A stretch of DNA of 64,000 bases from Octopus vulgaris (taxonomy: Eukaryota): positions 7,750,001 through 7,814,000 of the forward strand of contig OX597828.1 of the NCBI GenBank assembly GCA_951406725.2. Reading direction: 5' to 3'. A program made the position numbers and the translations under genes. This document shows positions 31,943 through 32,072 of the stretch, piece by piece. A model generated the notes under the pieces. That model ran no database searches. It was not told the DNA's origin and saw nothing but the letters and a program-made list of their open reading frames with translations. Every line of letters begins with the position of its first letter. Position 1 is the stretch's first letter.

Positions 31943-32072
31943 TACATTGTAGCTGACAGCTGTTTCGGCCGTGAAGACAGGTATGTCCCATTTAACCTAT
32001 TAGCCATATAAAGCAGGTATAAATGAGACATTAACAAGAATGTCTCACGGCCTCTTCAGAGAATTTAATGTA
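31943..32072 (-). ncRNA. Type I hammerhead ribozyme with large stem II insert
   Basis: Minus strand: UACAUU.aaauu.CU-CUGAAGA-GGCCGUGA...UCACGGCC-GAAA-C-AGCU-GUC-AG.cuac.AAUGUA; complete catalytic core. Confidence 0.75.

What the first reader, a model, noticed from the sequence alone, without database searches (positions are those of the whole stretch)
31943..32072. Second hammerhead of unrelated sequence with a ~70-nt branched stem II insert
Seen: CUGAAGA-GGCCGUGA...UCACGGCC-GAAA-CAGCUG-UC. Stem I has only 2 proximal bp, an internal loop, then UACAUU/AAUGUA. Loop II holds further hairpins (GACAUU/AAUGUC, CAUUUA/UAAAUG). It lies in a ~280-bp island between (TA)n tracts. Stem sequences differ entirely from the 41207 copy, so it is a separate family with the same architecture. 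A large structured domain on stem II is atypical for minimal PLE hammerheads and could carry another function (inference).
Basis: partly seen in the sequence, partly recalled or inferred. Interest (0 to 1): 0.75.

Follow-up and report, generated by a model that had tools for sequence, protein, structure and literature searches.

The report
Long-armed hammerhead ribozyme in jumping repeat
A short, many-copy non-coding repeat sitting in TA microsatellites carries an intact hammerhead self-cutting RNA motif with an unusually long side arm that is predicted to be a simple rod rather than a branched domain; it likely cuts only in pairs and is likely copied by Penelope-type jumping genes, so it is a variant of a known kind.

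Summary
The motif is real: a minus-strand type I hammerhead at 32072-31943 with every core base, a 9-bp stem II, an 8-nt palindromic helix III and a predicted cut after C31955. With stem II of 8 bp or more, 0 of 200 shuffled windows give one. The arm holds a 14-nt direct repeat 57 nt apart, which suggests it arose by duplication. Public contigs show a high-copy family with a common 3' end at TA tracts, one-sided changes that keep the helices, and a variable tip. Best reading: a non-coding, retrozyme-like repeat likely moved by Penelope-like elements (PLEs) and likely cutting as a double hammerhead; the 3' end of an autonomous PLE is the main rival. No genome was available, so tandem arrays, the helper element and cutting are untested. 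The scan has already noted long-stem-II hammerhead repeats in TA microsatellites elsewhere in this genome; I could not tell whether they are this family.

The parts
31788..32072 (-). 285-bp copy of a high-copy non-coding repeat (31% GC, longest stop-free frame 49 aa), hammerhead at its 5' end
32067..32072 (-). distal stem I, 5' strand
   Evidence: pair probability 0.61-0.91 in the 130-nt fold; 0.00 in the full 285-nt fold
32060..32061 (-). proximal stem I, 5' strand (2 bp)
   Evidence: probability 0.06
32053..32059 (-). catalytic core strand C3-A9 (CUGAAGA)
32044..32052 (-). stem II basal helix, 5' strand (G10.1 at 32052)
31976..32043 (-). 68-nt stem II extension: 12x7 inner loop, 12-bp helix, bulged apical hairpin; predicted rod
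   Evidence: (0 of 500 shuffles as stable)
32020..32031 (-). inner 12-bp helix, 5' strand (partner 31994-31983)
   Evidence: majority letter at 31988 turns U.G into U-A
31995..32019 (-). apical hairpin; longer and different in other subfamilies
   Evidence: loose ends at 31992-32018
31983..31994 (-). inner 12-bp helix, 3' strand
32034..32047 (-). first copy of a 14-nt direct repeat (second copy 31990-31977, offset 57 nt)
   Evidence: 11 of 14 letters match here; the common letters at 31988 and 31980 would each remove a mismatch
31967..31975 (-). stem II basal helix, 3' strand (C11.1 at 31967)
   Evidence: variant at 31975 turns G.U into G-C
31964..31966 (-). core G12-A13-A14
31956..31963 (-). 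helix III: perfect 8-nt palindrome, no stable hairpin alone, 8-bp duplex with a second copy (-11.1 kcal/mol)
31954..31955 (-). predicted cleavage site, between C17 (31955) and 31954
   Evidence: standard hammerhead numbering; cutting not tested
31943..31954 (-). stem I 3' strand: 2 proximal bases, 4-nt loop, 6-nt distal helix
31788..31942 (-). U-rich 3' tail (53% U) with AAUAAA at 31859-31854; common 3' end at about 31788
31826..31835 (-). segment that can pair 10 bp (3 G.U) over helix III and the cleavage site: candidate lock
   Evidence: probability about 0.72; 28 of 1000 shuffled tails do as well
31769..31787 (.). TA tract at the 3' side of the element (tail of the left half of a SINE-like repeat)
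32073..32113 (.). TA tract at the 5' side of the element

Best explanation
This is one copy of a high-copy, non-coding repeat inserted in a TA microsatellite that carries a complete type I hammerhead core; it is likely a retrozyme-like element copied by a TA-targeting Penelope-like retrotransposon, its ribozyme likely cuts only as a double hammerhead, and its long stem II arm is predicted to be an unbranched rod that likely arose by duplication and likely serves only as a tolerated, stabilising extension. Steps: (1) shown: core, helices, TA flanks, many copies. (2) Predicted: stem II and the rod fold strongly; stem I and helix III are too weak for a lone ribozyme; two copies pair their palindromes into an 8-bp helix III and make two active cores. 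(3) Inferred from known retrozymes and PLEs: read-through RNA from tandem copies is cut into unit-length pieces, ligated into circles by a host ligase, and reverse transcribed at nicked (TA)n by a PLE enzyme, giving a fixed 3' end and variable 5' ends. This lone copy, with no partner of its family in the window, would be expected to cut poorly.
For: Core and stems. Double hammerhead -86.7 kcal/mol against -70.8 for two lone active folds; short palindromic helix III marks dimer-dependent animal hammerheads (PMC4209133; PMC6765202). Many copies: 20 of 24 listed runs hold 59-76% of the words, in 3 coded organisms and 10 studies; 600-1146 contigs laid in each of the three large runs; one 58-nt exact contig has depth 2704 against 46-75 for three longer contigs of the same run that go on into other sequence. 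Summed depth is about 25-37 times higher at 31792-31802 than at 31891-31901 in those three runs, and three long contigs stop matching at 31868 or 31882, as expected for 5' truncation. An opposite-strand joint 31800/32061 in two runs and an end-to-start joint in two runs (tables 5 and 5c) fit PLE-type inverted and tandem insertions (PMC8557442 section 6). The end-to-start joints imply periods of about 334 and 352 nt, within the retrozyme range. Loose ends just past 32062 and 32072 are AT-rich, one running straight into (TA)n. Variants at 31975, 31988 and 32012 keep their pairs in the rod model. Loose ends at 31956 and 32062 show a related form with A at position 17, the same 2-bp proximal stem I and a distal helix (read by eye; that both ends belong to one subfamily is inferred). 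26 of 27 Hydra-clade PLE families prefer (TA)n.
Against: No tandem array of this family was seen whole: contigs are mostly 60 nt and none spans the stretch. The end-to-start joints are one contig per run and may be separate insertions into one TA tract. Only about 30 nt of upstream sequence was visible, so an ORF further upstream is not excluded. The double hammerhead is not the lowest-energy dimer (-95.3 for an inactive one). In the full 285 nt the active fold costs 15 kcal/mol in the nearest-neighbour model. Of 8 variant positions checked in the ribozyme, 3 keep a pair, 3 are unpaired and 2 break a pair in the rod model; one of these (31978) is common, 18-46% of depth in the three large runs. 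No two-sided compensatory change could be seen, because the tool lists single positions and misses changes near contig ends. In a published test 8 of 9 Xenopus retrozyme dimers did not cut. Depth figures are not copy numbers.
Confidence: 0.55

Rival explanations
1. The island is the 5'-truncated 3' end (pseudo-LTR) of an autonomous TA-targeting PLE such as a Hydra- or Neptune-clade family; the ribozyme works in the same dimeric way to process tandem PLE transcripts.
For: Fixed 3' end, heavy 3' bias and TA target. Hydra-clade PLEs carry type I hammerheads within about 100-210 nt of their 3' ends in most rows and prefer (TA)n. The Drosophila virilis Penelope ribozyme has a 2-bp helix I and a palindromic helix III. 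AU-rich flanks match the PLE consensus.
Against: No extra base between positions 9 and 10.1, a mark of PLE minimal hammerheads. Loop 2 is 3-10 nt in all 26 Hydra-clade rows. Six short motifs of this island had no hit in the Naiad, Chlamys and Hydra consensus files (line breaks could hide matches). No PLE ORF was recognised next to the island among the window's frames of 100 aa or more (by eye).
Confidence: 0.3
2. The arm is a functional regulatory domain: its repeated segments let it switch between an early hairpin or cruciform and the final rod, and a downstream segment locks the cleavage site, timing the cut during transcription and protecting the circle.
For: Prefix folding gives a 10-bp early hairpin until about 31991 is made; stem II forms only after. 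The lock helix has probability about 0.72, and the two common variants in it (31830, 31832) keep their pairs. The arm is present in all forms seen; no joint skipping it was listed.
Against: The cruciform is 10 kcal/mol above the rod and keeps 5 bp of basal stem II, so it would not switch the core off. The lock is matched by 28 of 1000 shuffles in one of two tests chosen after seeing the fold; the second test was null (923 of 1000), and a rarer variant at 31829 breaks a lock pair. The tip is variable.
Confidence: 0.1
3. The motif is a non-cutting relic or a chance arrangement carried along by an ordinary TA-targeting repeat.
For: Proximal stem I has probability 0.06 and helix III 0.00 as a monomer; no Rfam hammerhead match; many PLE-type hammerheads cut poorly in vitro.
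Against: 0 of 200 shuffles; intact core; no variant listed at a core position in six runs (a weak test, see limits); a related form keeps a valid cleavage triplet and stem I.
Confidence: 0.05

Closest known systems
Metazoan non-LTR retrozymes (Cervera and de la Pena 2020, PMC7229834; parts 2-4 of 6 and passages read, supplement unreadable; Li, Clavereau and Pollet 2026, 10.64898/2026.07.22.740005, parts 1-3 of 5 read)
   Same: Non-coding, low-GC repeat of a few hundred bases; type I hammerhead with weak palindromic helix III (axolotl type, dimer-dependent); monomers scattered in the genome; suspected PLE mobilisation.
   Different: Helix I is 2 bp then a loop (canonical 6 bp); helix II is 9 bp plus a 68-nt rod (canonical 4 bp plus a loop); no tandem array shown here; a possible blocking helix, which that paper says most animal retrozymes lack.
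PLE hammerheads: minimal type and Drosophila virilis Penelope variant (Cervera and de la Pena 2014, PMC4209133; parts 1-2 of 4 and supplement passages read)
   Same: Large helix II, palindromic helix III, G10.1-C11.1, 2-bp helix I in D. virilis, AU-rich flanks, mostly solo copies.
   Different: No unpaired base between positions 9 and 10.1; far longer stem II arm; no linked ORF shown.
Hydra-clade PLEs, e.g. Hydra-1_Obim (Craig et al. 2021, PMC8557442; sections 6 and 11, passages, supplement parts 1, 2, 52)
   Same: (TA)n target, type I hammerhead near the 3' end, no extra base needed before G10.1 in several rows.
   Different: Their loop 2 is 3-10 nt and helix III 3-4 bp; the Hydra-1_Obim ribozyme has different stems; no sequence match found.
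PLE-X1_sMoe and PLE-X1_sTam hammerheads (Craig et al. 2021, File S2)
   Same: PLE hammerheads with an enlarged loop 2 (35 and 29 nt); 9-bp stem II in sMoe. So long loop 2 regions are not unprecedented.
   Different: Plant, rDNA-targeted, about half the length, marked as deviating from the canonical structure.
[quoted passage not shown]
   Same: Needs a double hammerhead; an alternative fold suppresses the monomer.
   Different: Viral satellite; no loop 1 to loop 2 pseudoknot is predicted here.

Membership tests
Type I hammerhead ribozyme | Core CUGANGA, GAA, A15.1-U16.1, H17 in order | tested here: met
Type I hammerhead ribozyme | Helix II closed by G10.1-C11.1 | tested here: met
   9 bp, first seven pairs at probability 0.98-1.00
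Type I hammerhead ribozyme | Open helix I flanking the core | tested here: inconclusive
   2 contiguous bp (probability 0.06) plus a 6-bp distal helix (0.61-0.91 alone, 0.00 in 285 nt)
Type I hammerhead ribozyme | Helix III, stable or palindromic for dimer formation | tested here: met
   8-nt palindrome, duplex -11.1 kcal/mol
Type I hammerhead ribozyme | Loop 1 to loop 2 tertiary contact | tested here: inconclusive
   no Watson-Crick pairing predicted; non-canonical contacts cannot be tested
Type I hammerhead ribozyme | Site-specific self-cleavage | not testable with these tools
   only contigs were available; no raw RNA reads
Rfam hammerhead families | Score at the gathering threshold | tested here: not met
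   no hammerhead hit at gathering or at E up to 10; the long arm is the likely cause
Metazoan non-LTR retrozyme | Non-coding, GC below 45-50% | tested here: met
   31% GC, longest stop-free frame 49 aa
Metazoan non-LTR retrozyme | Tandem units, each with a hammerhead | tested here: inconclusive
   single copy here; one end-to-start contig in each of two runs
Metazoan non-LTR retrozyme | Expressed as unit-length linear and circular RNA | not testable with these tools
   contigs cannot show ends or circles
PLE minimal hammerhead (Cervera 2014) | Unpaired base between positions 9 and 10.1 | tested here: not met
   A9 is followed directly by G10.1 (consensus)
PLE minimal hammerhead (Cervera 2014) | Palindromic helix III, long helix II, short helix I | tested here: met
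Autonomous PLE (Hydra or Neptune clade) | Reverse transcriptase and GIY-YIG ORF upstream of the pseudo-LTR | not testable with these tools
   no genome held; the copy ends at 32072
Autonomous PLE (Hydra or Neptune clade) | (TA)n target, 5' truncation, inverted or tandem insertion | tested here: met
   (few contigs for the inverted and tandem joints)

The most novel reading that the evidence does not exclude
An animal retrozyme whose stem II arm, born by a 57-nt duplication, acts as a folding timer (early hairpin, then rod) together with a viroid-like helix that locks the cleavage site in the circle, and whose arm is also the handle recognised by the helper PLE enzyme; several unrelated families in one genome would have lengthened stem II independently.
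Probability: 0.12. Interest if true: 0.7.

Novelty: new variant of a known kind. Interest (0 to 1): 0.37.

Why it matters
Hammerheads in retrozymes and PLEs are well known, so the class is not new. Two points have modest value. A high-copy family with an 86-nt stem II arm is missed by Rfam and probably by descriptor searches with short loops, so animal hammerhead counts may be too low. And the family offers a clean natural test of whether stem II length matters and of how animal ribozyme circles avoid re-cutting, an open point in PMC7229834.

Tried and rejected
No whole genome is held, so no full-length copies, covariance model or R-scape test. Two metagenome scans found 0 matches. A viral scan gave 6 loci, all with 3-4 bp of stem II and 0-1 bp of stem I, so chance hits. 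No RNA holder is listed; runs X2 and X8 are only guessed to be RNA and were laid as contigs, so I draw nothing on expression or cut ends. Rfam at E up to 10 gave 19 weak matches, none a hammerhead or a SECIS and the best five all over TA tracts. A SECIS-like reading was dropped: the one RUGA word in the ribozyme lies inside basal stem II. A loop 1 to loop 2 pseudoknot is not predicted. Heterodimer with the 41207 ribozyme is not favourable (-1.2 kcal/mol). The alignment of the two ribozymes did not bring the cores into register and was not used. Look-ups of earlier findings by sequence were blank for this island and also for the 41-kb repeat, so they say nothing on family identity; the 'near' look-up was blank too. 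Lunse et al. 2017 and Arkhipova et al. 2017 are not held; the supplement of PMC7229834 could not be read; one supplement file of PMC4209133 was not searched. Any of these may show long-stem-II variants. Searches for a described natural long stem II returned none, which covers only the held library.

Full report
Observation. A type I descriptor finds two motifs in the window: this one (C3 at 32059; stem I 2 bp, stem II 9 bp, 86 nt between A9 and G12) and one with C3 at 41274 (stem I 7 bp, 42-nt arm). In 200 windows shuffled in 500-nt blocks, 5 gave a hit with stem II of 6 bp or more and none with 8 bp or more. The 130-nt region folds at z = -4.73. Rfam finds only a tRNA in the window and no hammerhead at this place even at E up to 10.

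The arm is a rod. ViennaRNA gives the basal helix 0.98-1.00 for its first seven pairs and a 12-bp inner helix (32031-32020 with 31994-31983) 0.80-1.00. With the core enforced, rod and branched ensembles are -33.7 and -29.6 kcal/mol; for the arm alone -37.3, -30.8 and -28.1 for rod, branched and cruciform. The 68-nt insert alone is more stable than 500 of 500 shuffles. These are predictions; no probing data exist.

Origin of the arm. Positions 32047-32034 and 31990-31977 form a direct repeat, 11 of 14 letters in this copy (35 of 1000 shuffles reach 11, none reach 13). The common letters at 31988 and 31980 in public contigs each remove one mismatch; whether both occur in one copy is not shown. 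Removing one 57-nt period would leave a compact 29-nt stem II. I infer that the arm arose by a duplication-type insertion during reverse transcription. The same repeat explains why branched drawings are possible, and why a 10-bp early hairpin is predicted until the 3' strand is made.

Activity. Helix III is an 8-nt palindrome with no hairpin alone and an 8-bp duplex between two copies. A double hammerhead evaluates at -86.7 kcal/mol, two lone active folds at -70.8, two lone minimum folds at -82.8 and the best unconstrained dimer, which is inactive, at -95.3. Weak palindromic helix III and dimer-dependent cutting are the described pattern for animal type I hammerheads (PMC4209133; PMC7229834; PMC6765202). 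Against activity: in the full island the active monomer fold costs 15 kcal/mol, and 8 of 9 Xenopus dimers did not cut in one study. No second copy of this family is in the window, and the 41207 palindrome cannot partner it.

The element. The island sits in a TA tract between two halves of a SINE-like repeat (the name is my reading); the same two halves occur together at five other places in the window. No genome is held. Of 24 listed public runs, 20 hold 59-76% of its words, in three coded organisms. I laid six of them as contigs. In the three large runs, 1146, 846 and 600 contigs were laid. Summed depth is far higher at the 3' end (714,798 at 31792-31802 against 19,572 at 31891-31901 in X1; 745,016 against 28,763 in X6; 165,872 against 4,437 in X10), and rises again over the ribozyme; the tool warns that this is no copy number. 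One exact 58-nt contig (32013-32070) has depth 2704 in X6, where three longer contigs that go on into other sequence have 46-75, which suggests tens of identical copies at least. Three long contigs stop matching at 31868 or 31882. One opposite-strand joint (31800/32061) stands in two runs, and one end-to-start joint in each of two runs, with 36 and 18 letters between. Depth falls steeply past 32062-32073, where the loose ends are AT-rich. This fits fixed 3' ends, 5' truncation, and inverted and tandem insertion as described for PLEs (PMC8557442 section 6). No listed contig spans the whole stretch.

Variation. Eight variant positions fall inside the ribozyme. In the rod model three keep a pair (31975 G.U to G-C, 31988 U.G to U-A, 32012 G.U to G-C), three are unpaired and two break a pair (31978, common; 31971, one contig). 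Only 31975 differs between the models: paired in the rod with a 9-bp stem enforced, unpaired in the branched form; this is weak support. None is at a core position, but changes near contig ends are not listed, and several contigs carry 6-9 differences that the table does not place. Loose ends, read by eye, show three longer versions of the tip that can still form a hairpin, and a related form with A at position 17, the same two proximal stem I bases and a distal helix; a further loose end shows changed letters in the 3' strands of the arm whose 5' partners I could not see. Compensation is therefore unproven.

Possible lock. In the 285-nt fold, 31835-31826 pairs over helix III and the cleavage site (probability about 0.72). 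28 of 1000 shuffled tails do as well; a second long-range pairing seen in the same fold was null (923 of 1000). Two common variants keep the lock pairs and one rarer variant breaks one. PMC7229834 says most animal retrozyme circles lack such a block, unlike plant retrozymes and viroids. This is a lead only.

Comparison. It works like an animal retrozyme or PLE hammerhead. It is not a PLE minimal hammerhead by the 2014 consensus, as the extra base before G10.1 is missing. Membership in the retrozymes is open because tandem units and circles were not shown. In File S2 of PMC8557442 (34 rows) loop 2 is 3-10 nt in the 26 Hydra-clade rows and at most 35 nt overall, so the arm here is longer than any listed but not of a new kind. 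My literature searches found no description of such an arm; two key papers and two supplement files could not be read. That the host is octopus-like comes from earlier scan notes and recall, not from a test.

Earlier notes. Before reading them I favoured a PLE end (75%). Notes on other DNA of this genome describe 485-495-nt long-stem-II hammerhead repeats in TA microsatellites and a mix of PLE ends and retrozymes. They led me to the Hydra clade and moved me toward the retrozyme reading, which my own joints and loose ends support only weakly. I could not test whether those notes concern this family or the 467-nt-period family at 40975-41710.

Verdict. Real ribozyme motif, known class, unusual but rod-like stem II arm; new variant of a known kind; interest 0.37.

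Noticed in passing
window 40975-41710: Two-armed repeat: partial tandem with a 467-nt period (40975-41175 and 41442-41636, 85% alike) plus an inverted arm (41645-41710 against 41289-41354), ending in (TA)n, with a type I hammerhead at about 41207-41281 on the minus strand (7-bp stem I, 42-nt stem II arm, 8-nt palindromic helix III). A second family with a lengthened stem II.
   Followed up: partly
window 31637-31768 and 32164-32260: Two halves of a SINE-like repeat flank the island; they occur together at five other places in the window, and three tandem 123-nt copies lie at 28045-28413.
   Followed up: partly
window 27073-27154 (+): tRNA gene with a long variable arm, Rfam 56.1 bits; the anticodon loop reads as Leu.
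   Followed up: no
window 56238-56726 (+): 162-aa stop-free frame that looks like the start of a LINE apurinic endonuclease domain (motif recalled, not searched).
   Followed up: no
window 32787-33159: Two tandem 184-nt copies, 91% alike, of another interspersed repeat.
   Followed up: no
window 31826-31835 (-): Segment complementary to helix III and the cleavage site; possible viroid-like lock.
   Followed up: partly
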